A stretch of DNA of 64,000 bases, taken from IMG/VR virus record IMGVR_UViG_3300025536_000001, positions 1 to 64,000 of that record; one strand, given 5' to 3'. Positions 38,258 to 62,007 of this stretch are shown one piece after another. Origin of the DNA: a virus. The notes beneath the pieces are model-generated. The model was not told where the DNA came from. It ran no database searches and was given only the letters and a program-made list of their open reading frames with translations. The translations under genes and the position numbers were made by a program. Position 1 is the stretch's first letter; every line of letters begins with the position of its first letter.

Positions 38258-39072
38258 TCCCGTATATTTTTACATCCGATGCTATCTCCCTGTTCCTTCC
38301 CGATAACAAGTCGTTTTCGATCAGGAAAGACCACAAGTATTTCAAGGCGCTTGTGGAGGCTATCAATGCGTCAGACGATACCGCTGTTCTGAATGTCGTC
38401 GACATGGCGCAGAAGATCGCAAACTTCGTCGAGGGAAAGGTGGTTGTCCAGAATGGGCAACTCTTCTATGGAGATGAGCTTCTCAGCGGGGCGATCGTTG
38501 ATCGTATCCTGCAGGGTATCTCGATGGGGTTGGAGTCGAAGTCCTATATCCTGTTCCTTGAGAACCTGATGAAGAATCCTTCCTTTCAATCTCGGAAGGA
38601 ACTTTATCTCTTCCTGGAGGCATGTGATCTACCAATCACTGAGGATGGTAGGTTCATCGCCTACAAGTCAGTGAGGGATAACTACTATGACGCGCACAGC
38701 GGCAAGTACCTCAATAAGGTTGGCGCCATCATCGAGATGCCCCGGCATCTCGTCAATGATGATCGTCAGCAGACATGCTCCGCCGGCCTTCACGTGTGCT
38801 CCAGGGCCTACGGGAAGTTCTCCCAGCGGCTCCTGCTTGTGGCAGTCAATCCCGCGGACGTTGTGTCAGTTCCCTATGACTACAACAACGCGAAGATGAG
38901 GGTCTGCAAGTATGAGGTCTTGAAGGAGATCGAAGAGTTCCAATCCTTCTCAGAAGACCCGGTCTGGGGCGATGATGAGGAAGAAGAAGGCGAGATCGAT
39001 ACCTGCCCGGAGTGCGGGTCGTCCCCAGAAACCGGAGCGTATTGCTCAAGCTGCGGGGCGTCATTGTCATAA
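38254..39072 (+). CDS. rIIB: rIIB-like protein with C-terminal zinc ribbon
   Basis: 272 aa. FLENLMKNPS, ITEDGRFIAYKSV, MPRHLVNDDRQQTCSAGLHVCS and DVVSVPYDYNNAKMRVCKYEV match T4 rIIB blocks as I recall them. It also has CPECG...CSSCG. Confidence 0.7.
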   Translation: MIPYIFTSDAISLFLPDNKSFSIRKDHKYFKALVEAINASDDTAVLNVVDMAQKIANFVEGKVVVQNGQLFYGDELLSGAIVDRILQGISMGLESKSYILFLENLMKNPSFQSRKELYLFLEACDLPITEDGRFIAYKSVRDNYYDAHSGKYLNKVGAIIEMPRHLVNDDRQQTCSAGLHVCSRAYGKFSQRLLLVAVNPADVVSVPYDYNNAKMRVCKYEVLKEIEEFQSFSEDPVWGDDEEEEGEIDTCPECGSSPETGAYCSSCGASLS

Positions 39073-39111
39073 TACTAACTAATCTCAGAAAATTTTTCAA
39101 AAATTTCTGGT

Positions 39112-39124
39112 GTTAGAGTCTAAC
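39112..39124. repeat. GTTAGAnTCTAAC palindrome, copy 14 (n=G), intergenic, last copy
   Basis: Exact match, immediately before a terminator-like hairpin. Confidence 0.95.
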
Positions 39125-39154
39125 CGGTGGGGGCAATAGGGCTCCCGCCGTTTT
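39125..39154 (+). terminator. Terminator-like hairpin closing the early block
   Basis: CGGTGGGGG pairs with CTCCCGCCG (9 bp, two G-U pairs), 8-nt loop, then TTTT. Confidence 0.5.
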
Positions 39155-39169
39155 AACAAGGAGGATAAA

Positions 39170-39550
39170 ATGGGCTTAGATATGTACTTAACTGGCCGGC
39201 GGTCGCTGCGAAACAATTCTCGTCCAGAGATTGACGGACATCCTGTTTCTGCCGAAGAAGTTGATTTGGGTTATTGGAGAAAACACCCAAATCTCCACGG
39301 CTTCATCGTCAGAGAATTTGCCGAGGGAAGAGATGAGTGTCAGCAGATAGTTCTTTCTGAAGAGAATATCGGTGCTATCATTGCTGCAGTAGACGGCAAT
39401 ACTCTTCCACCCACATCAGGTTTCTTCTTTGGAACCAGTGATGGTTCGGAGAAGGAAGAGGATTTGAAAATCCTGAACTCAGCGTTAAAGTGGTTGGCCA
39501 ATGAGCAAGACGGTGAATATCGTTCGGTCAACTATCAAGCATCATGGTAA
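39170..39550 (+). CDS. Hypothetical protein (126 aa)
   Basis: AAGGAGGATAAAATG. ORF track. Confidence 0.65.
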   Translation: MGLDMYLTGRRSLRNNSRPEIDGHPVSAEEVDLGYWRKHPNLHGFIVREFAEGRDECQQIVLSEENIGAIIAAVDGNTLPPTSGFFFGTSDGSEKEEDLKILNSALKWLANEQDGEYRSVNYQASW

Positions 39551-39560
39551 GGAGAGAGAC

Positions 39561-39953
39561 ATGACAACAAACAAAGCACAACTGCTCGTCGATGATAAGA
39601 AACTTGTCGGCGATGATATCCTTCTGTGGGCACCGATGGTGCCTGTAGCCTCAAGAACACTCAGAACCTTCCAGAAGTATAAAGAGCTGGAAGAAAAGCT
39701 GAACACCGATAAGGCATTCCTGCGTGAGCAGGCTCTGGGCAGGAAAGTCTCGATCGTAATCGAGAACACCGGCACAGTGCAGATCAAGACTCCCCCTGAA
39801 TCAAAACCAACGAAGAGTTGGGTGGTTAATGGTGATGCTCTTGGGGCGCTGCCTATTTCCATCAAGAAGATGCTGATCAAGAAGGGTGTGATCAGGGTCG
39901 AGAAGAAACCCGCCAGAATATCCACAGCATCTGTGGATATCAGGCCAGTCTAA
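39561..39953 (+). CDS. Hypothetical protein (130 aa)
   Basis: Track ORF trimmed to ATG 39561 after AAGGAGAGAGAC. Confidence 0.6.
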   Translation: MTTNKAQLLVDDKKLVGDDILLWAPMVPVASRTLRTFQKYKELEEKLNTDKAFLREQALGRKVSIVIENTGTVQIKTPPESKPTKSWVVNGDALGALPISIKKMLIKKGVIRVEKKPARISTASVDIRPV

Positions 39954-39958
39954 ACTGT

Positions 39959-39995
39959 GTGAGCTATAGAAATAATTCTATAGCTCACCTTTTAT
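39959..39995 (+). terminator. Rho-independent terminator
   Basis: 13-bp stem GTGAGCTATAGAA/TTCTATAGCTCAC, ATAA loop, then CTTTTAT. Confidence 0.75.
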
Positions 39996-40010
39996 AAGGA
40001 GGTTGCAAAT

Positions 40011-40682
40011 ATGACGCTCACCTTTAGGGATGCAATGATACTCATCGGCGGGGTTTCTACCCCGTCGAAGATGCCGGGCTACTCTTGGAGCACATCGGCT
40101 CTTGATTGCCAAACCGGTACCCAGCTGCGCGAGAAGGAAGGCTCTGTATGCTCGGGCTGCTACGCGATGAAGGGGAACTACAGGTTCAAGAACGTCAAGG
40201 AGGCTCACAATAGGCGGCTTGAAGCCATAAAGAACCCGCGCTTTGTCGAAGCATTCTGTATAGTATTGAACTCCCTCTACTCAAAAACCAGGAAGGTTTA
40301 TGAGAAAGATGGTGTTGAGATACGAGAGAACAGGTTCCGCTGGCATGACTCGGGCGATATCCAATCGGTAGATCACTTGAAGATGATCGATGAGATAGCC
40401 CTGGAATGTCCTCATCTAGACTTCTGGTTACCAACGAAAGAATCCGGTATGTTAAATGAATTCATGAAGAAACATGAGTTTGCACCGAACCTAAATGTTC
40501 GCTTGTCTCACCCGATGATCGGTGGTACATTTAAGGTGAAGCCTAACGGGTTGAATTTTTCTACCGTTGGGGTGAAGGAGGCACCGAACCACTGCCCTGC
40601 ATACAATCAAGGTGGAAAGTGCTTGAGCTGCAACAACTGCTGGAACAGGGAGATCGTCAGTGTCAACTATCCAAAACACTAG
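40011..40682 (+). CDS. Cys-rich protein, possibly Gp88-family (uncertain)
   Basis: 223 aa. CQTG...CSGCYAMKGNYRF and C-terminal CPAYNQGGKCLSCNNCW suggest metal or Fe-S binding. The family name is from memory only. Confidence 0.4.
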   Translation: MTLTFRDAMILIGGVSTPSKMPGYSWSTSALDCQTGTQLREKEGSVCSGCYAMKGNYRFKNVKEAHNRRLEAIKNPRFVEAFCIVLNSLYSKTRKVYEKDGVEIRENRFRWHDSGDIQSVDHLKMIDEIALECPHLDFWLPTKESGMLNEFMKKHEFAPNLNVRLSHPMIGGTFKVKPNGLNFSTVGVKEAPNHCPAYNQGGKCLSCNNCWNREIVSVNYPKH

Positions 40683-40698
40683 AGAAGTGAGAAGAAGG

Positions 40699-40887
40699 AT
40701 GATTAGAATAGGGGATATCGTTACGGCGCCGGGTGGTGAGGGTGTAGGCCGGGTGAAGGCAATCCAAGGGGCTGCTGTCACTGTCATGCTCGACACTCAA
40801 ACCAACCTGGTGAAAAAATACTTCCTCGCAGCAGTAAAGAAGGCGCCGCTGTCGGAAGCAGCACAATGGGAGGAACTCAATGGCTAA
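40699..40887 (+). CDS. Hypothetical protein (62 aa)
   Basis: Track ORF trimmed to ATG 40699. Confidence 0.5.
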   Translation: MIRIGDIVTAPGGEGVGRVKAIQGAAVTVMLDTQTNLVKKYFLAAVKKAPLSEAAQWEELNG

Positions 40888-41092
40888 AAAGAAAAGGGAA
40901 ATCGTAAAGCATTCAGAAGCTGATGTTGTTATCGTCCAACTTATCGGTGGGAATAAGAAGGGAAAGAAAATCCTCTTTGAAGATATCCTTGCCGCCGCTC
41001 AGAAGAGAGACATCAACGTGATTGTTAGGCAGGTCGGAGAGGCCAGCCTGATCTATAACTTTGACCCGATGGAAGAAGCGTTTAAGAGATAG
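40880..41092 (+). CDS. Hypothetical protein (70 aa)
   Basis: ORF track. GGGAGGAA SD. Confidence 0.55.
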   Translation: MAKKKREIVKHSEADVVIVQLIGGNKKGKKILFEDILAAAQKRDINVIVRQVGEASLIYNFDPMEEAFKR

Positions 41093-41230
41093 GCCCCTGT
41101 CCACTCCAGGGCGGGTGTGCTTACCCGCGGCAAACAAAGTCCTATCGATGGTGTCGTCAGGGGTTTTGGGGAGGTTGCGTGATTATCCTCACCCACTTCA
41201 TATCAAAGCCGTGTAATAGGATAGAAGCAG

Positions 41231-41650
41231 GTGTGGCCTACCAGGGAGCAATCCCATACAGGGCCAACTTTTCAGGAGGAAGCTATTTCTAAGAAGAACA
41301 AAAAGAAGCGCATCATACCAAAAGGCGCCTGTTATTATTGCGAGAAGCCAATCTTCAAACGCACTGGCGGAGATTGGGAGAGGACGCTTAAGCATGATGA
41401 GGCGACTGAGGATCATATTCATCCCCTCTCTAGGGGCGGGAGAGACATACCTGAGAACAGGGTCATGTGTTGCCATGAGTGCAACCAGATAAAGGCTGAC
41501 CTTTCTCTTGAAGAATTCAAGCTTGTTTTACAGAGGAGAAAAGAAAATGACGGACGTGTTTTTGGAGCTGTCCCAGGGAAAGAGAAAAGTCCTCCAGAAG
41601 GTGGAGGAAATATCACAGGTCCACGAACAGAAGTGGGTCGAAAAAATTAA
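41231..41650 (+). CDS. HNH endonuclease
   Basis: CYYCEKP...EDHIHPLSRGGRDIPENRVMCCHECNQIK is a classical HNH motif. The start is uncertain (GTG 41231). Confidence 0.8.
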   Translation: MWPTREQSHTGPTFQEEAISKKNKKKRIIPKGACYYCEKPIFKRTGGDWERTLKHDEATEDHIHPLSRGGRDIPENRVMCCHECNQIKADLSLEEFKLVLQRRKENDGRVFGAVPGKEKSPPEGGGNITGPRTEVGRKN

Positions 41651-41867
41651 GGGGGAGAGGGCTCCTAAGGGCCCCAAGGGTGCGTTCATTGTGTCGAGCG
41701 TCAATGAGTGCAACCTGGCGGTAGAGGAAACTTACGGGGAAGTAGTATCAATGATGGTTCGCGCGGGAACCCTCATCATTTCCCTTGAGGGAGAGAAGTC
41801 TGAAGCCGCGCTTAAACTTGTAACAGAGGAGGAAGAACCTGATGAACCCGTTGCTGCAAAATCTTAA
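41547..41867 (+). CDS. Hypothetical acidic protein (106 aa), overlaps the HNH gene by 104 nt
   Basis: Track ORF trimmed to ATG 41547 after GAGGAGAAAAG. Confidence 0.5.
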   Translation: MTDVFLELSQGKRKVLQKVEEISQVHEQKWVEKIKGERAPKGPKGAFIVSSVNECNLAVEETYGEVVSMMVRAGTLIISLEGEKSEAALKLVTEEEEPDEPVAAKS

Positions 41868-42264
41868 GAAAGAACTGCCAGTCGTGCTGGTACCTGTCAA
41901 GGTTGAAGTGTCGGCACAGAAGATCTGTGATCAGTTGTGCGCTGCGTTTGAAGGAGGCAGCAATTACTGGTTACGAGCAGCCGCACTGATTGACTCCTTG
42001 GTTCCACCTAAGAAAGGTAACATCTGGTACGGACAAGAGAAAATTTACACCCCCGGTTTTAGATGTGAGTTGGGGTATGATGATCCAGAAGGTCCAGGTG
42101 AGACGGTGAAAATTATTACCTGGGATGATCTTGCGAAAGGTCTCCAGATTATGGCAGAGAAATATCCTCGGCATTTTGCAGACGTAATAGATGAGACCGG
42201 GGATGCCATCACTGGTGATGTCTACATTCAATGTGTTATCTTCGGAGAAATAGTATACGGATGA
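41842..42264 (+). CDS. Hypothetical protein (140 aa)
   Basis: ORF track. GAGGAGGAAG SD. Confidence 0.6.
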   Translation: MNPLLQNLKKELPVVLVPVKVEVSAQKICDQLCAAFEGGSNYWLRAAALIDSLVPPKKGNIWYGQEKIYTPGFRCELGYDDPEGPGETVKIITWDDLAKGLQIMAEKYPRHFADVIDETGDAITGDVYIQCVIFGEIVYG

Positions 42265-42275
42265 TCAAGTTTTAG

Positions 42276-42329
42276 TTGACACCTGAAATGGTTTCAGGCT
42301 ACGACTAGAAGACGCCACAATCATGTGGC
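42276..42329 (+). promoter_or_regulatory. TTGACA element followed by two short perfect hairpins
   Basis: TTGACA 42276-81. CCTGAAA-tgg-TTTCAGG at 42282-98. GCCACA-atca-TGTGGC at 42314-29. The -10 element is weak (TACGAC). Confidence 0.3.
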
Positions 42330-42348
42330 TTAAGTGAAGGAAGAAAAG

Positions 42349-42600
42349 ATGAAAACGAAAGTCAAAAAACAAGAAGTGATCAAGAACCTGAAGACAACCG
42401 GTTTTGGTACGATTGAACTCAAAGGTTTCGGGCGCCGTAAGCTTGAGAAGCTGATCGACGCAGCAAACCTGGGAAGCACTGATAAGTTCCAACCGGTGAA
42501 GATTACCATTGAAGCTGAGATCGTCGACATCTCGAACTCTTTCGATGGTAAGGGTCAAGAGTTCCAGCTGAGCGTCAAGAAGCTCAAGCAGGTCGCTTGA
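42349..42600 (+). CDS. Hypothetical protein (83 aa)
   Basis: Track ORF trimmed to ATG 42349 after GAAGGAAGAAAAG. Confidence 0.55.
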   Translation: MKTKVKKQEVIKNLKTTGFGTIELKGFGRRKLEKLIDAANLGSTDKFQPVKITIEAEIVDISNSFDGKGQEFQLSVKKLKQVA

Positions 42601-42791
42601 CATCCGACTCTGAAAAGAAGGTTGAGGAGACGGGGTTAACTCCCGTCTCCCATCTTCGTCTTCTGCAAGAGAAACGCGCAGAGGCACAAGCTTCTATCTA
42701 CGCACAGCTCACACGGTCGGGCATGTCCAGGAAAGAACGGCGAAGGATCAAGAGCCAAGTGAAGAAGGCCATCGTGAAGGGTATAAAATGA
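42597..42791 (+). CDS. Hypothetical basic protein (64 aa, TTG start)
   Basis: ORF track. TTGA overlap with the upstream stop. Confidence 0.45.
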   Translation: MTSDSEKKVEETGLTPVSHLRLLQEKRAEAQASIYAQLTRSGMSRKERRRIKSQVKKAIVKGIK

Positions 42792-43432
42792 AGATCATTC
42801 TTGTCTGCCGTTCAGGTGGAGACTACAGACCACAGCATGCCAACTGGTTGATGCAGCAGCTTCCTCAGGGGGCTAGGGTCTCTATCATTACGGATTTTAT
42901 ACACGCGAACTTCATCAGGAATGCCCACGTAATTCCGCTTGAGAACTCACACTGGCTTGGTTGGTGGAGCAAGATGGAATTGTTCAGACCGGGGGTTATT
43001 GTGGAGCCAACGCTTTATCTAGACCTGGATACGGTGATTAAAGAACTCCCCGGCAAATACTTCTTCAACAAGCGGAGCGTGGTGCTCTCTGATTTTTATA
43101 AGCCAGAGAGACCTGCATCAGGAATGATGCTCATTCGTCCGCAGGACTGCGCTTCTGTGTGGGATAAGTGGATCAAGTCTCCAGAACAATGGATGAGGGA
43201 GTGCGGCTCTCATGGTGATCAGGCATTCATCGGTCCTAATTTAAAGGCGGATAGATGGCAGACGCTATACCCAAAAGAGATCATCTCATACAAAGCACAG
43301 TGTGTGAAGGGGAACAGGTTCTATAGCCCAGACGCGGGAACCTTTGAGACCGCGAAGATCATTTGCTTTCATGGCAAACCCAGGCCCTGGGAATCAAAAC
43401 AGGATTGGATACCAACCTATGCAGGAGTATAA
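42788..43432 (+). CDS. Putative GT-A-fold glycosyltransferase
   Basis: 214 aa. N-terminal MKIILVCRSGGDY and a DxD-like YLDLDTVI resemble small phage nucleotide-sugar transferases (recall). Confidence 0.5.
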   Translation: MKIILVCRSGGDYRPQHANWLMQQLPQGARVSIITDFIHANFIRNAHVIPLENSHWLGWWSKMELFRPGVIVEPTLYLDLDTVIKELPGKYFFNKRSVVLSDFYKPERPASGMMLIRPQDCASVWDKWIKSPEQWMRECGSHGDQAFIGPNLKADRWQTLYPKEIISYKAQCVKGNRFYSPDAGTFETAKIICFHGKPRPWESKQDWIPTYAGV

Positions 43433-44093
43433 GGTAACGAAGCGTTGCCACAAGGTAGCTATCATAGCCAGTGGATTGAGCCTGGTTGGGGTGGACTTCT
43501 CCAACCATGGTTTTAGAAACGATGGGTATATAATCTGCGTGAATGATTCATGGAGGAATCCTCTTGCGCCAGACCCAGATTGTGTGGTGACGATTGACAC
43601 AGTGAAACTCACCGAGAGATTCAGAGGCTGTCCTCACAAGGTGATCGCAGGTGTTCCTGATAATTTCGGTACCCACAAAGCAAAAGAACCCATAGATAGG
43701 ATTCCTCCTAAAAGATCTCTGTTGACGATGAGACGGTTAGGGTTGCTTGGTTTTTCGGAAGACGAGGGCGCCATCCATAGCGGGGAGAATAGCGGGTACG
43801 CTGCCTTCAACCTGGCATACCTTATGAGACCAGAACATATATTCCTATTTGGGATAGACCTGACGAATATGGGACAGCATTGTCACCAACATACTGATCC
43901 TAGAAAGAGACTGCCTGTGACAGAGGACAGACTACCCGGTAATTTCTTCTCTGTAGTCCCTCAAGTAGAGAGTAAAGGCATCAAGGTGATAAACGGTTCC
44001 CTTATTAGTAAGGTGCCTCATTTCAGGCAGGTCTCCCCGCACGAAGCTATCCGCGCGTGGAACTTTATAGGGAGTGAAAATGATAGAGTTTAA
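43419..44093 (+). CDS. DUF115 (MptE/Maf-like) putative glycosyltransferase
   Basis: Track ORF trimmed to ATG 43419. VAIIASGLSL...GYIICVNDS and SGENSGYAAFNLAYLMRPEHIFLFGIDL fit the DUF115 pattern (G.GPSL ... N ... G.D). Confidence 0.5.
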   Translation: MQEYKVTKRCHKVAIIASGLSLVGVDFSNHGFRNDGYIICVNDSWRNPLAPDPDCVVTIDTVKLTERFRGCPHKVIAGVPDNFGTHKAKEPIDRIPPKRSLLTMRRLGLLGFSEDEGAIHSGENSGYAAFNLAYLMRPEHIFLFGIDLTNMGQHCHQHTDPRKRLPVTEDRLPGNFFSVVPQVESKGIKVINGSLISKVPHFRQVSPHEAIRAWNFIGSENDRV

Positions 44094-44556
44094 AGAGCTT
44101 CCAGTCCTGACTAAGAGGAGTCTTCTCCATGTATTCTTTTCGGGGAAGCAAGGAGACTATAGCACAAATCATTTCCATTTCCAGGGAAAGGACTATGACG
44201 CTGGGTATAGCCGGCTCTTCGTAAGAGACACCACAAACCAATGGTACAACACTGAGGATTATAGTAACGCGGTGTTGCGCATAAGGGAACGCTGTTCAAT
44301 GTTTGAAGATGTGATCTTCATAGGGTCAAGTATGGGTGGGTACGGGGCTCTTAAGTTTGCCCTCGACTTCAGACCAAGAAAGGTGTTGGCATTCTCTCCT
44401 CAAGTAGAGACGCCATTTGGTCCTGATCTTTCTTACTTGTATTCCAATGTGATGGAGAGGCCTGAGATTGAGATACATCTGTGTAGGACCTCGAAGAATA
44501 AAAACTGGGATGATCTGGGGGCAGCACAAAAATGTCCTTCTGTTCTAAAATTATAA
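44080..44556 (+). CDS. Alpha/beta-hydrolase-like protein, possibly truncated by a frame change
   Basis: GSSMGG is a nucleophile elbow. No catalytic His follows in this frame, but an overlapping frame (44514-44636) encodes ...KHDCDDHNCAEIL... Confidence 0.5.
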   Translation: MIEFKELPVLTKRSLLHVFFSGKQGDYSTNHFHFQGKDYDAGYSRLFVRDTTNQWYNTEDYSNAVLRIRERCSMFEDVIFIGSSMGGYGALKFALDFRPRKVLAFSPQVETPFGPDLSYLYSNVMERPEIEIHLCRTSKNKNWDDLGAAQKCPSVLKL

Positions 44557-44628
44557 AGCACGACTGCGATGATCATAACTGTGCAGAGATCCTAAAGAAT
44601 AAAGGAAAACTGCGGGAGATTATCCTCA

Positions 44629-45182
44629 ATGCGTAAGCGTGTGATGGTGGTTGCTCACCCAGATGATGAGACTATATGGGCGGGTGGACTTGTCCTCCTC
44701 AACCCAGGAGACTGGACTATTATCTCCTGCCAGATTCCTAAAATAGATCCTGTCAGGTCAGATAGTTTCCTACAAGCATGCCGGTTGTTGGGCGCAAAGG
44801 GTGTAAACAGGCCCCAGGCGTTAGACCCAGACTTCCACTTTAAGTTGGGGGATATGGATTTATCTGGATACGATCACATCGTTACACACGGGCAAAGGGA
44901 GAGTATGGTCACCCAGACCATATCAATCTTCATAACTTCGTCATTAAAAACTGGGCAAATAAACCTATCACCACTTTCGGGTATTTGTCCGGGAAGTATG
45001 TGTTGAGGTTAGACGCGCTGACAACTAATAAGAAGTTGGACGCGCTTAAAAAATACGACTACCTACGCTCCATGTATGAGAGCGGAAAGAACATTCCCAT
45101 GTGGAAATCTATAGTAAATAATAGATATAAAGGAGGTATAAGAATGGATGTGGAAACTTATGATGGAGCGTGGCCAATATGA
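44629..45182 (+). pseudogene. PIG-L/LmbE-family deacetylase split by a 1-nt frame change near 44894-44899
   Basis: Frame 1 gives MVVAHPDDETIWAGG...YDHIVTHGQR. The second family motif GEYGHPDHINLH continues only in the -1 frame, which then runs to 45182. The junction is at the homopolymer AAAGGG. Confidence 0.75.
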
Positions 45183-45829
45183 CGCACCCAAAAGCACCAG
45201 ACGAGTGGTTCAACCAGAGGATCATAGAAGGAAACGGTATCTTTGATCGTGATTCCTACGAGCTGATGATGTCAGCTGTGAAAAGTTTCAGGACAGCTAT
45301 CGATATTGGGGCGCACGTGGGAACCTGGTCTATCCCTATGGCGTCTCACTTCAAACAAGTCATGTCTTTTGAACCTGACTGGGTGAATTTCAAATACCTC
45401 CTGGCTAATACGTCTGGGATTAATAACATCATCAAGCACAACATAGCTCTTGGTGCTGCTAATGAGTGGGTAGGAATGGAGAAGGGGTCAGAGAATAGTG
45501 GTCAGAGTTTCATATCGACCAACACAAAAAATCTATCCCAACCAATTCTCATGGCAGCTTTGGACGATTACGATCTTTCAGGAGTAGATCTAATCAAAAT
45601 AGATACTGAGGGATTTGAGTTGAATGTATTGAGAGGGGCAGCGTTTACGATAGCAAAGTGCTCACCAGTTATAATGGTGGAGCTAAATGGTTTGGGTAAA
45701 CGCTACGGAATCATGGACTCGCAGGTGAAAGAGTTCCTGGAGAGCTTGAGCTATAAACTATTTGGAAAACAAAATAAGGATTATGTGTATGTCAGAAAAT
45801 ACGATGGACAGACCTATCCCCTGTCCTAA
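45179..45829 (+). CDS. FkbM-family methyltransferase
   Basis: AIDIGAHVGTWSI...FEPD...IKIDTEGFELNVLRGA matches the FkbM signature. ATGA coupling to the deacetylase C-terminal frame. Confidence 0.75.
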   Translation: MTHPKAPDEWFNQRIIEGNGIFDRDSYELMMSAVKSFRTAIDIGAHVGTWSIPMASHFKQVMSFEPDWVNFKYLLANTSGINNIIKHNIALGAANEWVGMEKGSENSGQSFISTNTKNLSQPILMAALDDYDLSGVDLIKIDTEGFELNVLRGAAFTIAKCSPVIMVELNGLGKRYGIMDSQVKEFLESLSYKLFGKQNKDYVYVRKYDGQTYPLS

Positions 45830-46130
45830 CTGCGGGAAGAACCTTCTGCTAGATGTGACTACAGAGGCTTATCGTTGTTCCTGTAAGGCCAAACTTGTTG
45901 AACGCTCGATGGATCTAATAGGGCTCTGCTGTCCAAGATGCAACTCTAGTGCTCCGCACTTCATGCCGTTCTTCAGTGAGCAGGGAGCAGTCTGCGCTAT
46001 CGCATGCTTCTCATATGCATGCCAGGGGACGACGATGATCTTCATCAAGAACGGAGTATTGGAATCTGTTGAGGTTGGACATATAAAAAGGTACGAAGAC
46101 GATGATCCGAATTTTAAAGAACCAGCTTGA
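45789..46130 (+). CDS. Zinc-ribbon protein (113 aa)
   Basis: CPNCG...CSC and CCPRC motifs. ATG 45789 lies 8 nt after TAAGGA. Confidence 0.5.
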   Translation: MSENTMDRPIPCPNCGKNLLLDVTTEAYRCSCKAKLVERSMDLIGLCCPRCNSSAPHFMPFFSEQGAVCAIACFSYACQGTTMIFIKNGVLESVEVGHIKRYEDDDPNFKEPA

Positions 46131-46596
46131 CCAGGAGGAATTTAAATCGTATCTAGAGAAATTGGGCGCAGACTTCTCTAAGGAGTCTCCGTTCTTTTCG
46201 TTCAGGGTATCTGAACGATGCTACACTCGGTTCTACGACAAGGTGTATGTAGACGGGTGGGATCTAATAGGGCCAGAAGAAAACCTGGTTCTAAATTTTA
46301 TCGAAAGGAAGACTGAGATGGAAACAAGCGCAGTAAAGAAAGAGATCGAAGACAACGGCATTGAGCAGCAGGCGCTTTCAACAGCAGAGTTTATTCCTGT
46401 TGAGAGTTCCAACCTGGAAGCTGTAGCCTATGTCGCGGAGCAAAGCCTGCTCTTCATTCGCTTCAAAAGCACCGGGACCTATGCGTTCTATAGCGTATCC
46501 CCCGACACTTTCAAGACGCTTCTGGGCGCCGAGAGCAAGGGCACGTTCTTCAACGATACCATCAAGGGAAAGTACAGCTACGCAAAGGTGGCCTGA
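46102..46596 (+). CDS. KTSC-domain protein
   Basis: C-terminus VESSNLEAVAYVAEQSLLFIRFKSTGTYAFYSVSPDTFKTLLGAESKGTFFNDTIKGKY fits the KTSC domain. Confidence 0.7.
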   Translation: MIRILKNQLDQEEFKSYLEKLGADFSKESPFFSFRVSERCYTRFYDKVYVDGWDLIGPEENLVLNFIERKTEMETSAVKKEIEDNGIEQQALSTAEFIPVESSNLEAVAYVAEQSLLFIRFKSTGTYAFYSVSPDTFKTLLGAESKGTFFNDTIKGKYSYAKVA

Positions 46597-46778
46597 TGGA
46601 TAGACAAGAACTATCGATCTACTGGAACTACTCAATGGCAGTCTACAGAAATACGGTCGACGCAGAGACGCTCGATGGTCGTATTGATGTGATGCTACAA
46701 TATACGGAGATCAGCCCGTGGCTAAGAACAAAACTCACCGGTCTCCAGACCGTAAACAAGAGGAAGTTAGCCGCTTAA
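46596..46778 (+). CDS. Hypothetical protein (60 aa)
   Basis: ORF track. TGATG and TAATG coupling at its ends. Confidence 0.5.
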   Translation: MDRQELSIYWNYSMAVYRNTVDAETLDGRIDVMLQYTEISPWLRTKLTGLQTVNKRKLAA

Positions 46779-47458
46779 TGACTGCGTATCCGTTTGGACT
46801 CCACCAAGACCCCGAAAACGGGGCTTGGTGGATGCTCCAAAAGAACGCAGCGCATAACGCGATCGGACTTCCTGAAACCACCTGCCCATTTGTAGTCCCT
46901 ACCAGAGGGGAATGCCCTCACCAGGTAAGACTTACTGGTGAATATCCAGAGAGCAACATATTATCAGACTTTGCAGAACTGCTGGACAACCCAGGTATTC
47001 TAAATCACTTCCTACCTATGGTGTCTCTACCCACAAAGATCATGGTGATCAGGGCGCGTCCTAACCATCACAGGTTGGTGGCGAACCTTCATAAGCTGTC
47101 TTGCCCAACAGCAAACATGTGTGTTGTACTGACGGGGCCTGTCTCGCCCATCATAAAGAAAGCAGCCGTGGCTTCTCTTTCTAATATGGGGCACCTTCTT
47201 ATCATAGGTGCTACCGACTTCGCCTCATATAAGCTCAGAGAGATAGTGAACCAATGCCTGGTGACCAATACTAAGCTGACGATCATCTCTGAGGACGATC
47301 TTACGCTATCAAGCCGTGGTGGTCAGTACGCCAAAGTGACTCTCGAACAGGAGTCAAAGATATTCGATTTCCTTTCTGTTTGGGGGGAGGAGGATGAACA
47401 GTTCCCAACCTTGGGGGCTTATTATCTATACAACAAGATGCGTGGAAATAGTATTTAG
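46778..47458 (+). CDS. Hypothetical protein (226 aa)
   Basis: Track ORF trimmed to ATG 46778. Confidence 0.55.
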   Translation: MTAYPFGLHQDPENGAWWMLQKNAAHNAIGLPETTCPFVVPTRGECPHQVRLTGEYPESNILSDFAELLDNPGILNHFLPMVSLPTKIMVIRARPNHHRLVANLHKLSCPTANMCVVLTGPVSPIIKKAAVASLSNMGHLLIIGATDFASYKLREIVNQCLVTNTKLTIISEDDLTLSSRGGQYAKVTLEQESKIFDFLSVWGEEDEQFPTLGAYYLYNKMRGNSI

Positions 47459-47469
47459 AGGAGGGAAGA

Positions 47470-48882
47470 ATGCCAGAACCTTTATTCGATTGGCAGATAG
47501 ATGATCTCGCGTTCTATATGAAGAACGAACGATGCGTAAATCTCAGCGACCCAGGCAGCGCCAAGACTCCTACGGTTTGCGTCTACTTGGAGTGGCTTTG
47601 GAACAAGAAGAAATGCAAGTCCATTTGGACTATGCCTAAATCGCTCATGCGCAAGAATAGGGATGAGCTTCTTCGCTTCACCAACTTTACGAAGGCGGAC
47701 ATTGCGATAGTGGATGGAACCCCTGCTGTTCGTGAGGAGATAATGAATAGGCCGGCAAAAGTGTTCATCATGGGCTTCAAGAGATTCTCCGATGATTGGA
47801 AGAAGATCAGGACTCTTCACCCAGAGATAGATATGGTGGCTATCGATGAGGTTCATATGGGCTTCAAGTCACACAATAGTCAGAGAACTAAAGAGCTCTT
47901 CGTGGCGATGAGAAGCATCAAGCACTTCCTTCCCATGTCTGGGTCTCTTATCGACGGGCGCCTGGATAGCGCATATCCAACCATCCATATCATAGAGCCT
48001 AGATATTACACTAATCATTGGTCGTTCATGGCACAGCATGCAATCTCTGACGAATACGGCAGAGTTATAATGTGGAGCAACCATGAGAAGCTTGGGAGAA
48101 TATTCAAGAGGCATGGCATTCGTCGTACATTCGAATCGGTTTGGAAGGACGCGCAGAAGCCAGTCATTATCACTGAGAGGGTGGAAATGTCTGAGAAGCA
48201 GCGTAAAATCTATAACGAGTTCGAAGAGAAAGCCATCCTCGAATTGGAGGACGGTTACCTGGAAGGCTTCAATCCCGCTGTGAATGCCATACGCTGCCGC
48301 CAAATTATGGCTCACCCTGAGACCTTCAAGCTTCTTAAGGAGGGGGAGATCACTGGTAAGGATGAAGCTCTGCAGGTTCACCTTGAAGATCACATCAACA
48401 AGAAAGAGCCTATTCTTATCTATGCTGCCTTGGTTCCAGAGCAGGAACGTATTGCAAAGATATGTACGGACGCTGGTTTCAAGGTTGGGCTTATGAATGG
48501 GGCTACGTCCGCTCCTGATCGGTCAGACATAGACGAGAAGTTTCGTTCAGGTGAAATTGATTGCATCGTAGGATCACCACAGGTCGCAGCGGTTGGTTTC
48601 AACTGGGGTCATATCGACCACGTGGTATTCACCAGTCTCAACTATCAGAATGTGGACTTCGTACAAGCATACCGCCGGGCGATCCGCGGGGCGCGTAAGA
48701 AGCCGCTGCGCGTAACGGTGCTTGAATACGCAGACTCAATAGACCAGAGGATATTTCAGATCGTCAATAAGAAGTCCTTGGACTTGGCCAAGGTGGATTC
48801 CAGCTACGATGTTCTCACTCTGGGTTCCCAGAAAGAAGATAGTATTCTGGATAAGGTAATTGATGCAAGAAAAGCAAAATAG
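47470..48882 (+). CDS. SNF2-family helicase/ATPase
   Basis: 470 aa with DPGSAKT (motif I-like), AIDEVHMGF (DEVH box) and a C-terminal helicase domain ending ...QAYRRAIRGARKKP. Confidence 0.85.
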   Translation: MPEPLFDWQIDDLAFYMKNERCVNLSDPGSAKTPTVCVYLEWLWNKKKCKSIWTMPKSLMRKNRDELLRFTNFTKADIAIVDGTPAVREEIMNRPAKVFIMGFKRFSDDWKKIRTLHPEIDMVAIDEVHMGFKSHNSQRTKELFVAMRSIKHFLPMSGSLIDGRLDSAYPTIHIIEPRYYTNHWSFMAQHAISDEYGRVIMWSNHEKLGRIFKRHGIRRTFESVWKDAQKPVIITERVEMSEKQRKIYNEFEEKAILELEDGYLEGFNPAVNAIRCRQIMAHPETFKLLKEGEITGKDEALQVHLEDHINKKEPILIYAALVPEQERIAKICTDAGFKVGLMNGATSAPDRSDIDEKFRSGEIDCIVGSPQVAAVGFNWGHIDHVVFTSLNYQNVDFVQAYRRAIRGARKKPLRVTVLEYADSIDQRIFQIVNKKSLDLAKVDSSYDVLTLGSQKEDSILDKVIDARKAK

Positions 48883-48885
48883 TTG

Positions 48886-48945
48886 TTGACCGGGTTTCCC
48901 CAAACTGGCATAAATGGGTTGTCCTTCAGAAATTGTTTCTGAAGG
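48886..48945 (+). promoter_or_regulatory. Promoter-like element plus 23-bp perfect palindrome in the leader
   Basis: TTGACC (48886-91), 18 nt, ATAAAT. Then CCTTCAGAAA-ttg-TTTCTGAAGG at 48923-48945. Confidence 0.5.
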
Positions 48946-48971
48946 TTACAACGAAGAAGGAGACCTATCTT

Positions 48972-49646
48972 ATGTCGCAACCAAATCCTGTTGACGCTGC
49001 CATTGCAAAAGCTGAAGCGCAAGCCGCAGCAAATGCTCCATCCAATCTGCCCCAACAAGGGCAGGTGGTAGATATGGTACCGGCCAACGGTACGTACTCT
49101 GCACCAGCCCCGGTTAGCCTGGGAGACCTGAAGAAAGGAATGAACGTAGATTCATTCCTGAAGCTCAGCTTCTATGGGATGGCTATCGGGAATCCTGAAC
49201 CTCTCTTCCAAGGCCCAATCAAAGCCAAGATCGATATGGCTGAGTTCCAGGCTTTTGAAGGGTTGGTTTACGGTAAGCCTCCAGTTTACATCAAGACGTT
49301 CGACCGTATCACGGAAGAAAATGGTGGAAGCTGGGCTGATGCAATGAACAAAGCTCGTCGCGCAGACCCTTCTGCTCGTTCTTACACTGGTGTCAACATC
49401 TCTGCTACGCTGCTGGAGAATGTCGCTGCTGATGGTAAGACGATTGCAGAAGCCGGCCTCCGCATCGGCTATTCGACGCCTCAGTCGGCTCGTGCGAACA
49501 TGTCGAAGTTCGTTGAAGAGGTCACAAAACTTGGCCTGATCAACAGCTGCGTCGATGTTCTCATCGGCTACGAGAAGCGTACGAATAAAGACGGTCAGAA
49601 GTGGGGTGGTATCACTCTCGAACTGATCGGCGAACACAAGTCTTAA
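48972..49646 (+). CDS. Abundant-looking replication/recombination accessory protein, possibly ssDNA-binding (function not established)
   Basis: 224 aa from ATG 48972 (AAGGAG). It has its own promoter-like element and a strong terminator. No motif recognised. Confidence 0.35.
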   Translation: MSQPNPVDAAIAKAEAQAAANAPSNLPQQGQVVDMVPANGTYSAPAPVSLGDLKKGMNVDSFLKLSFYGMAIGNPEPLFQGPIKAKIDMAEFQAFEGLVYGKPPVYIKTFDRITEENGGSWADAMNKARRADPSARSYTGVNISATLLENVAADGKTIAEAGLRIGYSTPQSARANMSKFVEEVTKLGLINSCVDVLIGYEKRTNKDGQKWGGITLELIGEHKS

Positions 49647-61166: not shown

Positions 61167-61351
61167 TTCTCGATGTTCCGATCAGTGATGAAGATCTGGA
61201 TCAGGCCAACAAGAGACATACCAGCGGTCATAATGGCTGCAGCCTGCTCTGGCTTGAAGGCCAGACCGGCGGCAGTGAGGATAGAAAAGATACCCTTCCA
61301 GGTGCTGTCGTGCTTTAGGTATTCGAAGATGTTATCAAGAAAGCTGTTCAT
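61163..61351 (-). CDS. Holin (two TM segments)
   Basis: 62 aa with GIFSILTAAGLAF and AAAIMTAGMSLVGLIQIFI. Immediately downstream of the endolysin. Confidence 0.6.
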   Translation of the reverse strand: MNSFLDNIFEYLKHDSTWKGIFSILTAAGLAFKPEQAAAIMTAGMSLVGLIQIFITDRNIEK

Positions 61352-62007
61352 TTTGATTCTCCCTTTTGCTTGGTGAATAACCTGGCAAAAAATCCAGGCC
61401 TATTCTTAGTCTCAACCGGGGGTGGTTTTTTGTCAACCTCTTTAGGAATAAGAAGTTCCATATTACTTAAGAACCAGTTGGCTCTGTTTATCCAACCATC
61501 GTGGTTGACCACCTGCGCGGGATCCAAATGGATAATATTTTCATAAAAATCTTTACGTTGAGTAACGATCTCTGTCAGGACGGCCTTCGCCCCATATTTC
61601 TCCACCGCGGCTCGGGCCCAGGTTAGGGTATAAGGGCCTATCAGACCATCAGGGCGGGGCGCGAAGCACTGCATGTTCTTCAGGCCCCATTGCAGGATGC
61701 GCCCAGCATTGCCGGCGCCGTGGTTAACCGCCATGTCGAATACTAGGCAACGAAGACATTCAGGAAGCTTATTGCAGCTTACATCGTTCCAATAAACTTC
61801 AGTATAGATCTTAACCGCGGTCTCACGTGTAAGGTTCTGCACATCCTTATCGGTAACAGCCTTGGTGAGATAGGATTGAAGAGTCCTCTTAGTGATGCCG
61901 AATTTGGTGGCGCCCCCACGGTCGCTCTTTCGGTTAGTGTACTTCGCCCCACCCTCAAACCGGTCGATTGTGTGGTTGATTATGTCGTCTCTTTCAATAA
62001 GCATCAC
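61348..62007 (-). CDS. Endolysin, glycoside hydrolase family 108 with C-terminal peptidoglycan-binding domain
   Basis: IDRFEGGAKYTNRKSDRGGATKFGIT is the GH108 signature. Confidence 0.85.
   Translation of the reverse strand: MMLIERDDIINHTIDRFEGGAKYTNRKSDRGGATKFGITKRTLQSYLTKAVTDKDVQNLTRETAVKIYTEVYWNDVSCNKLPECLRCLVFDMAVNHGAGNAGRILQWGLKNMQCFAPRPDGLIGPYTLTWARAAVEKYGAKAVLTEIVTQRKDFYENIIHLDPAQVVNHDGWINRANWFLSNMELLIPKEVDKKPPPVETKNRPGFFARLFTKQKGESK

What the first reader, a model, noticed from the sequence alone, without database searches (positions are those of the whole stretch)
42788..45829. Five-gene glycan-modification cluster in the replication/middle block
Consecutive, translationally coupled genes encode:
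- a small GT-A-like glycosyltransferase (DxD-like DLD)
- a DUF115 (Maf/MptE-like) putative glycosyltransferase
- an alpha/beta hydrolase (GSSMGG)
- a PIG-L/LmbE deacetylase (AHPDDE, GHPDH)
- an FkbM methyltransferase

The cluster has its own upstream hairpin/TTGACA region (42276-42329). No hydroxymethylase or deazapurine genes are present, so a DNA sugar modification lacks an obvious acceptor base. Glycosylation and methylation of virion proteins (known for some mycobacteriophages) is one possibility. Remodelling of a host surface glycan or of flagellin (DUF115/Maf proteins glycosylate flagellins) to block superinfection is another. The combination with a deacetylase and hydrolase is unusual for a phage.
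Basis: partly seen in the sequence, partly recalled or inferred. Interest (0 to 1): 0.68.

Follow-up and report, generated by a model that had tools for sequence, protein, structure and literature searches.

The report
Partly decayed phage glycan-tailoring gene cassette
This lytic-looking phage carries a cassette of sugar-adding and sugar-trimming enzymes that recurs in many unrelated phages, usually among the head genes, which suggests it puts a methylated sugar coat on virus particles; in this genome two of its five genes are broken by single-base frameshifts.

Summary
The five genes are at the stated coordinates and four of the five domain calls hold, with three corrections.

- **The PIG-L gene is frameshifted.** AHPDDE and GHPDH lie in different frames, split by a 1-nt loss at GGG 44890-44892. 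All three assemblies on record share this. About 300 homologues are intact.
- **The alpha/beta-hydrolase gene is truncated in this window only.** An A5 run replaces A6 at 44528-44532, which removes the family's near-invariant His.
- **The combination is not unusual for a phage.** A pair made of a GT8-like glycosyltransferase (the P1 PmgQ family) and a DUF115, sialyltransferase-like protein recurs in many viral contigs and prophages. It often comes with this small PIG-L deacetylase and a SAM methyltransferase.
  - In seven loci examined, from several head-gene lineages, the cassette sits in or next to the head/packaging module.
  - The pair also occurs fused, as DUF115+GT8 and as O-methyltransferase+GT8.

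The TTGACA "promoter" is not supported. The hairpin next to it is real.

My best reading is a cytoplasmic glycan-building and glycan-tailoring module that most likely decorates phage structural proteins. It would be analogous to, but not homologous with, the mycobacteriophage virion-glycosylation cassettes. The copy here is partly decayed. The target is inferred, not shown. I found no published description of the cassette.

The parts
42270..42329 (+). Structured intergenic element: two stem-loops just after a TTGACA. Its role is unknown. It is not shown to be a promoter or a terminator.
   Evidence: The RNA fold is -24.4 kcal/mol, z -3.5, and 0 of 200 shuffles fold as well. There is no -10 hexamer at a sigma-70 spacing. 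No U-tract follows. The element is unique in the window.
42334..42791 (+). Two small ORFs (88 aa and 64 aa). They overlap each other by 4 nt, and the second overlaps g1 by 4 nt, so they are probably co-translated with the cassette. Function unknown.
   Evidence: ORF list and junctions. No significant Pfam hit; sORF1 also has no PHROG hit. No counterpart in any of the other fetched loci searched.
42788..43432 (+). g1: GT8-like retaining GT-A glycosyltransferase of the P1 PmgQ / P7 HdmD family (214 aa). Intact.
   Evidence: phrog_1962 at E 3.7e-53. 39% identity to PmgQ/HdmD. AF2 pLDDT 96. Foldseek finds glycogenin, Skp1 GalT, LgtC and GlyE at TM 0.6-0.7. Invariant D79-L80-D81, plus H195-G196..P198-R199-P200-W.
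43419..44093 (+). g2: DUF115/MptE-like protein with a sialyltransferase/Maf-like fold (224 aa). Intact. Its start overlaps g1 by 14 nt.
   Evidence: PF01973 at 27.5 bits, below the 34.6 cut-off. phrog_4603 at E 7e-13. AF2 pLDDT 80.6. Foldseek finds CstII at E 1.7e-4, Maf 5mu5 and MptE 8sd5.
44080..44556 (+). g3: small alpha/beta-hydrolase-fold protein, truncated here to 158 aa. The likely ancestral function is a glycan O-acetyl esterase or transferase.
   Evidence: G82-S84-G86 and D145 are invariant and H166 nearly so in the family. Of 40 homologues, 12 hit Hydrolase_4 and 9 hit Asp2. The Pfam hits of the window protein itself are sub-threshold.
44528..44532 (+). A5 homopolymer: the site of the g3 frameshift. 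The same site is A6 in the Logan contig.
   Evidence: This is the single difference over 12.6 kb between the window and L003. The 185-aa product is on record from Logan and ENA. The 158-aa product is on record from JGI/IMG only.
44533..44636 (+). Out-of-frame remnant of the g3 3' end. It encodes ...HDCDDHNCAEILKNKGKLREIILNA*. Its TAA overlaps the g4 ATG.
   Evidence: Three-frame translation, the intact L003 product and the alignment with homologues.
44629..44892 (+). g4 5' part: the PIG-L/LmbE deacetylase N-terminal half, with AHPDDE. As the window reads, frame 0 runs on to a stop at 45006.
   Evidence: PIG-L scores 19.5 bits unrepaired.
44890..44892 (+). GGG: the site of the 1-nt loss that splits g4. 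It falls between the family-invariant T86-H87 and G91-E92-Y93-G94-H95..H98.
   Evidence: Alignment of the repaired protein with 51 homologues. Codon comparison with L088, L006 and L007.
44893..45182 (+). g4 3' part in the -1 frame, with GEYGHPDH and the C-terminal half. Its stop overlaps the g5 ATG by 4 nt.
   Evidence: The repaired 184-aa protein passes the PIG-L gathering score, 30.6 against 28.2 bits. It covers 96-99% of about 300 homologues of 165-200 aa. A family profile hits MshB.
45179..45829 (+). g5: FkbM-family SAM-dependent methyltransferase (216 aa). Intact.
   Evidence: PF05050 at E 2.4e-15, 57.5 bits. TIGR01444 at 83.2 bits. phrog_8156 at E 7e-31.

Best explanation
The region is one copy of a modular, horizontally mobile phage cassette of soluble cytoplasmic enzymes that build and tailor a short glycan.

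**Composition**
- The core is a pair: a GT8-like retaining glycosyltransferase (g1, the PmgQ family) and a DUF115 protein with a sialyltransferase/Maf-like fold (g2).
- Variable accessories are a small PIG-L/LmbE de-N-acetylase (g4), one or more SAM methyltransferases (here FkbM, g5) and, in this phage only, a small Ser-Asp-His alpha/beta hydrolase (g3).

**Inferred chemistry**
1. g1 transfers a hexose or HexNAc from a UDP-sugar onto the acceptor.
2. g4 removes the N-acetyl group. This follows the logic of the MshA/MshB, BshA/BshB and PIG-A/PIG-L pairs.
3. g2 adds a second sugar, possibly from a CMP-activated donor.
4. g5 methylates a sugar.
5. g3 adds or removes an O-acetyl group.

**Inferred target.** The most likely acceptor is a phage structural protein, that is, virion glycosylation. 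The basis is that the cassette usually lies within or beside head genes and in places abuts or overlaps them.

**State in this genome.** The pathway is partly disabled. g4 is split by a frameshift in every assembly on record. g3 has lost its catalytic His in the window's assembly. At most g1, g2 and g5 can act.

**Shown.** Folds, family memberships, both frameshifts, and the recurrence, synteny and fusions.

**Inferred.** Donor sugars, order of steps and acceptor.
For: **Enzyme identities.**

**Recurrence in viral contigs**
- I examined 20 contigs carrying close, full-length relatives of g4: 18 from the viral collection and 2 Logan/ENA phage contigs.
- 16 carry a g1-like gene within a few kb, 17 carry a methyltransferase (FkbM, MT1 or MT2), and at least 7 carry DUF115.
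- None of about 60 loci with only distant PIG-L relatives carries any of these.

**Recurrence in bacterial genomes**
- In 72 g1-like loci, mostly from Proteobacteria, DUF115 lies close to the GT8-like gene in 31, usually directly upstream.
- Head protease, capsid, portal or MuF genes lie a few kb upstream in 12 or more.

**Position in the genome**
- L006 and L007: portal, then the cassette, then MuF, protease and capsid. In L006 the first cassette gene overlaps portal by 4 nt and MuF starts 1 nt after the last.
- L009 and L010: the cassette follows the capsid gene.
- L015: terminase, portal, cassette, tape measure.
- L008: the cassette follows portal.
- L019: the cassette precedes terminase.
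- Jumbo phages XacN1 and Xoo-sp13: two DUF115 genes and a GT8 gene sit directly upstream of giant tail or host-specificity proteins.

**Fusions**
- XacN1 ORF373 is a TylF O-methyltransferase fused to a GT8-like domain.
- Phage proteins of 685-700 aa annotated MptE-like contain a g1-like domain at TM 0.70-0.74.

**Conservation in the lineage.** A related 80-kb phage (L088; helicase 54% identical) keeps DUF115, GT8, an intact PIG-L and a methyltransferase at the same genomic place.

**Precedent**
- Corndog has an O-methyltransferase and three glycosyltransferases between portal and protease (PMC4351075).
- PBCV-1 A064R and A061L are virus-encoded glycosyltransferases plus sugar O-methyltransferases that act on capsid glycans (PMC9614988).

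**Localisation.** None of g1-g5 has a transmembrane segment.

**Decay.**
Against: - No acceptor is identified.
- The capsid proteins of cassette-bearing phages belong to different families. They show no shared Ser/Thr-rich tail of the kind glycosylated in mycobacteriophages.
- In this window and in L088 the cassette lies in the replication and nucleotide-metabolism arm, not among the structural genes.
- The g1 family also occurs alone in moron-like positions, such as Chlobot between int and tail-fibre assembly.
- P1 pmgQ is dispensable for plaque formation (PMC10695390).
- g2's fold matches a pyrophosphokinase (MptE) about as well as it matches sialyltransferases. g2 is below the Pfam cut-off.
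- Two of the five genes are disrupted here, so the cassette may do little in this particular phage.
Confidence: 0.4

Rival explanations
1. The cassette remodels a host glycan: an LPS or capsule intermediate, or flagellin or pilin. This would change receptors and block superinfection, or act as lysogenic conversion when carried by prophages.
For: - Most g1-like loci in bacterial genomes look like prophages.
- In the lambdoid phage Chlobot, a lone g1 homologue sits between integrase and the tail-fibre assembly gene. That is a classic moron position.
- g2 resembles the Maf flagellin glycosyltransferases and CstII.
- GT8 includes LOS and LPS enzymes such as LgtC and WbbM.
Against: - The window phage looks lytic. 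It has its own primase, polymerase, helicase, ligase and rIIA/B, and no integrase turned up among the ORFs scanned.
- In small temperate-type phages the cassette's ends abut or overlap late head genes (L006) rather than forming an independent unit.
- The jumbo lytic phages carry it too.
- No membrane-anchoring segments are present.
Confidence: 0.2
2. In this phage the cluster is a decaying, essentially non-functional remnant. It was acquired horizontally and is now being lost.
For: - The g4 frameshift is present in all three assemblies on record, and the intact version is absent from the collection.
- A second frameshift, in g3, is present in the window's assembly.
- Both disruptions lie within 360 nt of each other.
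- The P1 homologue is dispensable (PMC10695390).
Against: - g1, g2 and g5 are full length and keep the family-invariant residues.
- Start/stop overlaps are preserved.
- The related phage L088 keeps GT8, DUF115 and PIG-L intact at the same locus.
- PIG-L is dispensable for the module: only 2 of 72 g1-like loci in bacterial genomes carry it. The cassette could work without it.
Confidence: 0.15
3. The enzymes act on a soluble or host cytoplasmic target. Candidates are a host protein (takeover or anti-defence by glycosylation) or a small molecule, by analogy with the GlcNAc-transfer-then-deacetylation routes to mycothiol, bacillithiol and aminoglycosides.
For: - A glycosyltransferase paired with a PIG-L deacetylase is the canonical first two steps of those pathways. 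A family profile of g4 hits MshB.
- All five proteins are soluble.
- In this phage the cassette sits among early or middle genes.
Against: - PIG-L is only an occasional accessory of the core pair.
- No ligase or other downstream small-molecule enzymes accompany the cassette.
- This idea gives no reason for the head-module position seen elsewhere.
Confidence: 0.15
4. The cassette hypermodifies phage DNA with a sugar, to evade restriction.
For: - Here and in L088 it lies in the replication and nucleotide-metabolism arm. In L088 it is flanked by an NPPW methyltransferase-like gene and ThyX.
- DNA glucosylation is the classical role of phage glycosyltransferases.
Against: - The only ThyA-family gene passes the thymidylate-synthase equivalog cut-off, 431 bits against 327.
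- No hydroxymethylase or deazapurine gene turned up among the ORFs scanned.
- The cassette occurs in 36-41-kb HK97-like phages, between their head genes.
- To my knowledge, GT8-like, sialyltransferase-like and PIG-L enzymes are not known to act on DNA.
Confidence: 0.06

Closest known systems
Phage P1 PmgQ / P7 HdmD ('putative morphogenetic function'; RefSeq 'glycosyltransferase'; phrog_1962)
   Same: It is a homologue of g1: 39% identity over 98% of the length. The DxD motif and the C-terminal HG(K)PRPW motif are shared across the family.
   Different: In P1 the gene stands alone, with no detectable DUF115, PIG-L or methyltransferase partner (one search returned only jumbo phages and one uncultured phage). 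It is dispensable (PMC10695390). Its activity and target have never been tested.
Mycobacteriophage virion-glycosylation cassettes (Corndog gp35-38; Che8-type)
   Same: Both are multi-gene sets of glycosyltransferases plus an O-methyltransferase encoded by a tailed phage. [quoted passage not shown]
   Different: There is no detectable sequence similarity. The Corndog set has no DUF115 and no PIG-L. Its hosts are Actinobacteria. In the window the cassette is not in the structural module.
Chlorovirus PBCV-1 A064R / A061L
   Same: These are virus-encoded cytoplasmic glycosyltransferase domains coupled, and in A064R fused, to sugar O-methyltransferases that finish the capsid-protein glycan (PMC9614988). 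The parallel here is the TylF-GT8 fusion in XacN1.
   Different: It is a eukaryotic giant virus. The glycosyltransferase families differ, and the glycans are N-linked.
GT8 retaining glycosyltransferases (glycogenin, Skp1 alpha-GalT, LgtC, GlyE)
   Same: The GT-A fold, the DxD motif and a C-terminal His-Gly..Lys/Arg-Pro-Trp motif. These are the top Foldseek matches.
   Different: g1 is shorter (214 aa). It has no hit to Pfam Glyco_transf_8 and only 11-16% identity to these enzymes.
Maf flagellin glycosyltransferases / CstII sialyltransferases / MptE (Pfam PF01973 and relatives)
   Same: g2's fold and its weak profile match.
   Different: g2 has only the roughly 220-aa core and lacks the Maf flanking domains. 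It scores below the gathering cut-off. Whether it is a glycosyltransferase or a pyrophosphokinase is unresolved.
GlcNAc-transferase + PIG-L deacetylase pairs (MshA/MshB, BshA/BshB, PIG-A/PIG-L)
   Same: A glycosyltransferase sits next to a PIG-L-family metal-dependent de-N-acetylase carrying the AHPDDE and HxxH motifs.
   Different: In those pathways the transferase is GT-B (GT4), not GT8. This deacetylase is a minimal 165-200-aa form, and here it is frameshifted.

Membership tests
CAZy GT8-like glycosyltransferase (g1) | GT-A Rossmann-like fold closest to GT8 structures | tested here: met
   The AF2 model has pLDDT 96. The top 50 Foldseek PDB hits are glycogenin, Skp1 GalT, LgtC, WbbM, GlyE and 3tzt, at E from 5e-8 to 4e-6 and TM 0.5-0.7.
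CAZy GT8-like glycosyltransferase (g1) | DxD metal/nucleotide-sugar motif and a C-terminal His..Lys/Arg-Pro-Trp motif | tested here: met
   D79, L80 and D81 are invariant. H195, G196, P198, R199 and P200 are invariant or nearly so in 70 homologues. That this matches the GT8 signature is from my own knowledge.
CAZy GT8-like glycosyltransferase (g1) | Significant match to Pfam PF01501 Glyco_transf_8 | tested here: not met
   No Pfam family at E <= 0.1 and no NCBIfam hit. The best PDB sequence hit is 6mw5, at only E 0.088.
CAZy GT8-like glycosyltransferase (g1) | Nucleotide-sugar-dependent transfer activity | not testable with these tools
   This needs an enzyme assay.
DUF115 / MptE-like, PF01973 (g2) | Score at or above the Pfam gathering cut-off | tested here: not met
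   27.5 bits against 34.6. The collection's precomputed table does list PF01973 for this protein.
DUF115 / MptE-like, PF01973 (g2) | Fold shared with CstII, Maf and MptE | tested here: met
   Foldseek finds 1ro7 at E 1.7e-4, 5mu5 at 7e-4 and 8sd5 at 2.6e-3, with TM about 0.5. The model pLDDT is 80.6 and there are three low-confidence loops.
PIG-L / LmbE deacetylase, PF02585 (g4) | One continuous ORF encoding the domain | tested here: not met
   A -1 frameshift at 44890-44892. It is the same in the JGI, Logan and ENA assemblies.
PIG-L / LmbE deacetylase, PF02585 (g4) | AHPDDE and HxxH metal-binding/catalytic motifs, and a Pfam score above the cut-off | tested here: inconclusive
   Both motifs are present, but in different frames. 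The score is 19.5 bits unrepaired and 30.6 repaired, against a cut-off of 28.2. The repaired protein aligns end to end with the family.
FkbM methyltransferase, PF05050 / TIGR01444 (g5) | Score above the curated cut-offs | tested here: met
   57.5 bits against 22.7 and 83.2 against 37.7.
Alpha/beta hydrolase (g3) | Ser-Asp-His triad, with the Ser in a GxSxG elbow | tested here: not met
   Ser84 and Asp145 are present. The near-invariant His166 is lost through the frameshift in the window copy. It is present in the 185-aa Logan/ENA allele.
Alpha/beta hydrolase (g3) | Pfam score above the cut-off | tested here: not met
   Abhydrolase_1 scores 18 bits against 25.8, and Esterase 17.6 against 22. 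Homologues do hit Hydrolase_4 (12 of 40) and Asp2 (9 of 40).
Phage virion-glycosylation system (mycobacteriophage type) | Homology to the Corndog/Che8 enzymes | tested here: not met
   BLASTP of Corndog gp35-38 against the cassette proteins gives nothing better than E 0.12.
Phage virion-glycosylation system (mycobacteriophage type) | Location inside the virion structural operon | tested here: not met
   Not met for the window or for L088, where the cassette lies in the replication arm. Met for homologous cassettes in L006-L010, L015 and L019.
Phage virion-glycosylation system (mycobacteriophage type) | Glycans on capsid or tail proteins | not testable with these tools
   This needs mass spectrometry of virions.

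The most novel reading that the evidence does not exclude
The window carries a decaying copy of a widespread, so far undescribed phage system. Its core is a DUF115 plus GT8-like pair, with PIG-L, methyltransferase and esterase accessories. The system would glycosylate the virions of phages that infect Proteobacteria with a methylated glycan containing an amino sugar. That would make virion glycosylation a general feature of tailed phages rather than an actinobacteriophage peculiarity.
Probability: 0.3. Interest if true: 0.75.

Novelty: new variant of a known kind. Interest (0 to 1): 0.5.

Why it matters
Virion glycosylation has been shown experimentally only for a few mycobacteriophages and for giant algal or amoebal viruses.

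A non-homologous cassette that recurs within or beside the head genes of many unrelated phages and prophages of Proteobacteria would widen that picture. Its presence in cultured phages is useful: XacN1, Xoo-sp13, RAS14 and CM1 carry the pair, and P1-like and lambdoid phages carry the GT8 gene alone. It would mean glycan coats on phage particles are much more common than assumed. That bears on phage-therapy immunogenicity, receptor interactions, environmental stability and the annotation of the 'PmgQ' family.

The cultured carriers make the idea directly testable.

The window also shows how such cassettes are lost: through homopolymer frameshifts in accessory genes while the core stays intact.

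Tried and rejected
- **Near-identical DNA in cultured phages.** None found.
- **Single-protein scan of viral contigs with g2.** No relatives.
- **Exact-pattern scans for an intact or alternative allele of the g4 frameshift site.** No match in viral contigs or in metagenome contigs.
- **Programmed -1 frameshift in g4.** Rejected. There is no X XXY YYZ heptamer in phase with frame 0 around 44885-44900 (by inspection). The run is only GGG. Relatives encode the junction in one frame.
- **Sequencing error as the sole cause of the g4 shift.** Unlikely, because three assemblies share it. I could not establish whether they come from independent samples.
- **Sigma-70 promoter at the TTGACA.** Not supported.
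- **Hidden hydroxymethylase.** The ThyA-like gene is a thymidylate-synthase equivalog.
- **Ser/Thr-rich C-terminal tails on the capsid proteins of cassette-bearing phages.** None seen.
- **Atypical GC content of the cluster.** Not remarkable, at the 14th percentile.
- **The 33-aa match of g3 to the DUF115 gene of XacN1.** Treated as a chance GxSxGG-like similarity.
- **Look-ups of the truncated g3 product.**
  - The contig index gave nothing.
  - The cluster look-up resolved it.
- **Literature searches for this cassette.** Searches on DUF115, MptE-like or LmbE combined with phage found nothing relevant.

Full report
**Setting**

The window is most of an uncultured siphovirus-type genome of about 81 kb.
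- Terminase, portal and major head genes lie on the minus strand at 10.4-16.9 kb.
- A long plus-strand arm carries primase, ThyA, rIIA/rIIB, an SNF2 helicase, a 5'-3' exonuclease, ligase, DNA polymerase, SbcCD-like proteins and MazG.
- Its terminase is only 42% identical to that of the nearest cultured phage, Achromobacter phage JWF.
- The cluster has no near-identical DNA in GenBank phages.

**Checking the observation**

Five plus-strand ORFs occupy 42788-45829.

g1 (42788-43432, 214 aa)
- It has no Pfam or NCBIfam hit.
- It matches phrog_1962 'glycosyltransferase' at E 3.7e-53.
- It is 39% identical over its whole length to P1 PmgQ / P7 HdmD.
- An AlphaFold model built on 70 homologues has pLDDT 96. 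Its best solved-structure matches are all GT8 retaining GT-A enzymes: glycogenin, Skp1 alpha-galactosyltransferase, LgtC, WbbM and GlyE (E from 5e-8, TM 0.6-0.7).
A C-terminal H195-G196-K-P-R-P-W is also conserved.

g2 (43419-44093, 224 aa)
- It matches MptE-like/DUF115 at 27.5 bits, below the cut-off of 34.6.
- Its model (pLDDT 80.6) is most similar to CstII sialyltransferase, then to the Maf flagellin glycosyltransferase and the archaeal MptE pyrophosphokinase.
- The fold class is therefore supported. The activity is not settled.

g5 (45179-45829)
- It is a solid FkbM-family methyltransferase.

g4
- The PIG-L gene starts at 44629 and encodes AHPDDE in frame 0. The GHPDH motif and the whole C-terminal half are in the -1 frame, which ends at 45182.
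- Inserting one G after GGG 44890-44892 gives a 184-aa protein. It passes the PIG-L gathering score (30.6 against 28.2 bits; unrepaired, 19.5 bits).
- The repaired protein aligns end to end with about 300 intact homologues of 165-200 aa.
- The break falls between the invariant T86-H87 and G91-E92-Y93-G94-H95..H98.
- Relatives encode ...THG-A-x-GEYGH... in one frame.
- No in-phase slippery heptamer is present, so programmed frameshifting is unlikely.

g3
- It stops at 44556, which leaves a 72-nt gap before g4.
- A contig assembled from run SRR6213120 matches window 36788-49431 exactly except for one base: A6 instead of A5 at 44528-44532.
- With A6, g3 is 185 aa and its stop overlaps the g4 start.

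Which allele is where
- The 185-aa g3 is in the Logan and ENA assemblies (81,140-bp contig).
- The 158-aa g3 is only in the JGI/IMG contig (81,127 bp), which is evidently the window's source.
- The truncated 125-aa g4 product is in all three.
- The repaired g4 is nowhere in the collection.

What g3 is
- An exhaustive search found 247 relatives.
- The small ones, about 185 aa, share an invariant G-x-S-x-G, an invariant Asp145 and a near-invariant His166 in an HDCDxHN motif.
- The window copy loses His166.
- Of 40 relatives, 12 hit Hydrolase_4 and 9 hit Asp2. From my own knowledge, Asp2 is the alpha/beta-fold O-acetyltransferase of GlcNAc on serine-rich-repeat glycoproteins.

Consequence for coupling

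**Upstream element**
- The stem-loops at 42270-42329 are significantly stable (z -3.5) and unique in the window.
- The TTGACA has no -10 hexamer.
- Two small coupled ORFs (42334-42791) lie between this element and g1.
- A dedicated promoter is therefore not supported.

**The cassette is recurrent**

Loci found through the PIG-L gene
- Using an alignment of PIG-L homologues, I fetched 80 viral-contig loci and searched them with the cassette proteins.
- I counted the 18 viral loci whose PIG-L is a close, full-length relative, together with two Logan/ENA phage contigs, 20 in all.
  - 16 have a g1-like gene.
  - 17 have a methyltransferase. This is FkbM, a 194-aa class-I enzyme, or a 350-aa enzyme with a C-terminal CTP-dependent riboflavin-kinase-like domain.
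  - At least 7 have DUF115.
- None of about 60 loci with only distant PIG-L relatives has any of these.

Loci in bacterial genomes
- Of 72 g1-like loci, mostly prophages of Proteobacteria, DUF115 lies close to the GT8-like gene in 31, usually directly upstream. PIG-L occurs in only 2.
- The core is therefore the DUF115 + GT8-like pair. PIG-L, the methyltransferases and the hydrolase are accessories.
- g3 has no counterpart in any other locus fetched.

Fusions that confirm the coupling
- XacN1 ORF373 is a TylF sugar-O-methyltransferase fused to the GT8-like domain.
- Phage proteins of 685-700 aa annotated 'MptE-like' contain a g1-like domain.

Conservation in this lineage
- A related 80-kb phage (L088) keeps DUF115, GT8, an intact PIG-L and a methyltransferase at the same place in the genome.

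**Where the cassette sits**

All seven loci I annotated have it in or beside the head/packaging module.
- L006 and L007: portal, then the cassette, then MuF, protease and capsid. In L006 the first cassette gene overlaps portal by 4 nt and MuF starts 1 nt after the last.
- L009 and L010: after the capsid gene.
- L015: between portal and the tape measure gene.
- L008: after portal.
- L019: before terminase.

Other positions
- Several prophage loci show protease, capsid and then the cassette.
- In the jumbo phages XacN1 and Xoo-sp13 it precedes giant tail or host-specificity proteins.
- In this window and in L088 it lies in the replication arm.
- In lambdoid Chlobot a lone GT8-like gene sits between int and tail-fibre assembly.

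**Mechanism**

Shown
- Folds and family memberships.
- Soluble proteins without membrane segments.
- Synteny, fusions and the two frameshifts.

Inferred
- A GT8-like enzyme adds a sugar from a UDP-sugar.
- PIG-L de-N-acetylates a HexNAc, following the logic of the MshA/MshB, BshA/BshB and PIG-A/PIG-L pairs. A g4 family profile hits MshB.
- The sialyltransferase-like protein adds a second sugar.
- FkbM methylates a sugar.
- The hydrolase handles O-acetyl groups.

Target
- I take the acceptor to be a phage structural protein, because of the head-module position.
- The closest published parallels are two:
  - Corndog's O-methyltransferase and three glycosyltransferases, which lie between portal and protease (PMC4351075). 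They show no sequence similarity to this cassette.
  - PBCV-1 A064R and A061L (PMC9614988).
- No acceptor was found.
- Capsid families differ among the carriers, and they show no shared Ser/Thr-rich tail.

State in this phage
- At most g1, g2 and g5 are functional.

**Rivals**
- Host glycan remodelling. Moron-like contexts and the Maf similarity favour it. The lytic character of this phage and the tight abutment with late head genes in L006 argue against it.
- Plain decay of the cluster.
- A soluble or host cytoplasmic target.
- DNA modification. The ThyA gene is a thymidylate-synthase equivalog, no hydroxymethylase was found among the ORFs scanned, and the cassette occurs in small HK97-like phages.

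**Novelty and score**
- P1 pmgQ is annotated 'glycosyltransferase' in RefSeq, and it is dispensable (PMC10695390).
- Literature searches found no description of this cassette.
- I rate it a new variant of a known kind, phage-encoded glycosylation cassettes.
- It is of moderate interest. The recurrent head-module cassette is worth testing in cultured carriers. The instance in this window is partly broken, and its function is inferred.

Noticed in passing
window 20961-21821 (+): A ThyA-family gene (PF00303, E 2e-118). It passes NCBIfam's thymidylate-synthase equivalog cut-off, 431 bits against 327. So the phage makes dTMP, and nothing points to a hydroxymethylase.
   Followed up: yes
window 42270-42329 (+): A stable double stem-loop in the 69-nt gap upstream of the operon (z -3.5). 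It is unique in the window, has no U-tract and has no -10 box. Its function is unknown.
   Followed up: partly
L006 8521-9576, and the equivalent gene in L007, L009-L014, L016, L018, L021, L022, L024 and L027: A protein of about 350 aa (shorter in some loci, e.g. 261 aa in L007). It is a class-I methyltransferase with a C-terminal domain that matches the CTP-dependent riboflavin kinase family (PF01982, 25.6 bits). In most other cassettes it immediately follows the PIG-L gene. It is absent from the window, and its role is unexplained.
   Followed up: partly
BFVD entries A0A6J5PVH5 (700 aa) and A0A6J7XC21 (685 aa): Uncultured-phage proteins annotated 'MptE-like' contain a domain that matches the g1 model at TM 0.70-0.74. 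They are natural DUF115 + GT8-like fusions.
   Followed up: partly
L088 8803-9393 and 11818-12489: In the related 80-kb phage the cassette is flanked by two genes. One is a 196-aa protein with an NPPW motif, which looks like a DNA N6/N4-methyltransferase but has no Pfam hit. The other is ThyX.
   Followed up: no
window 46102-48882 (+): A KTSC-domain protein, a 60-aa ORF, a 226/246-aa protein and an SNF2-family helicase form a block. The block is syntenic with L088 (helicase 54% identical).
   Followed up: partly
window 35903-39072 (+): rIIA-like (784 aa, phrog_612 at E 7e-117) and rIIB-like (272 aa, PF26926) genes lie upstream of the cassette.
   Followed up: no
window 41231-41650 (+): By eye this ORF carries an HNH-endonuclease-like motif (HIHPLSRGG...CCHECNQIK). 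I did not test it against profiles.
   Followed up: no
window 61348-62007 (-): An endolysin-like protein with Glyco_hydro_108 and PG_binding_3 domains. This is consistent with a Gram-negative host.
   Followed up: no
L165 (Escherichia phage Chlobot) 7001-7720: A lone g1 homologue sits between integrase and the tail-fibre assembly and tail-fibre genes. This is a moron-like position. The GT8-like gene also travels without DUF115.
   Followed up: partly
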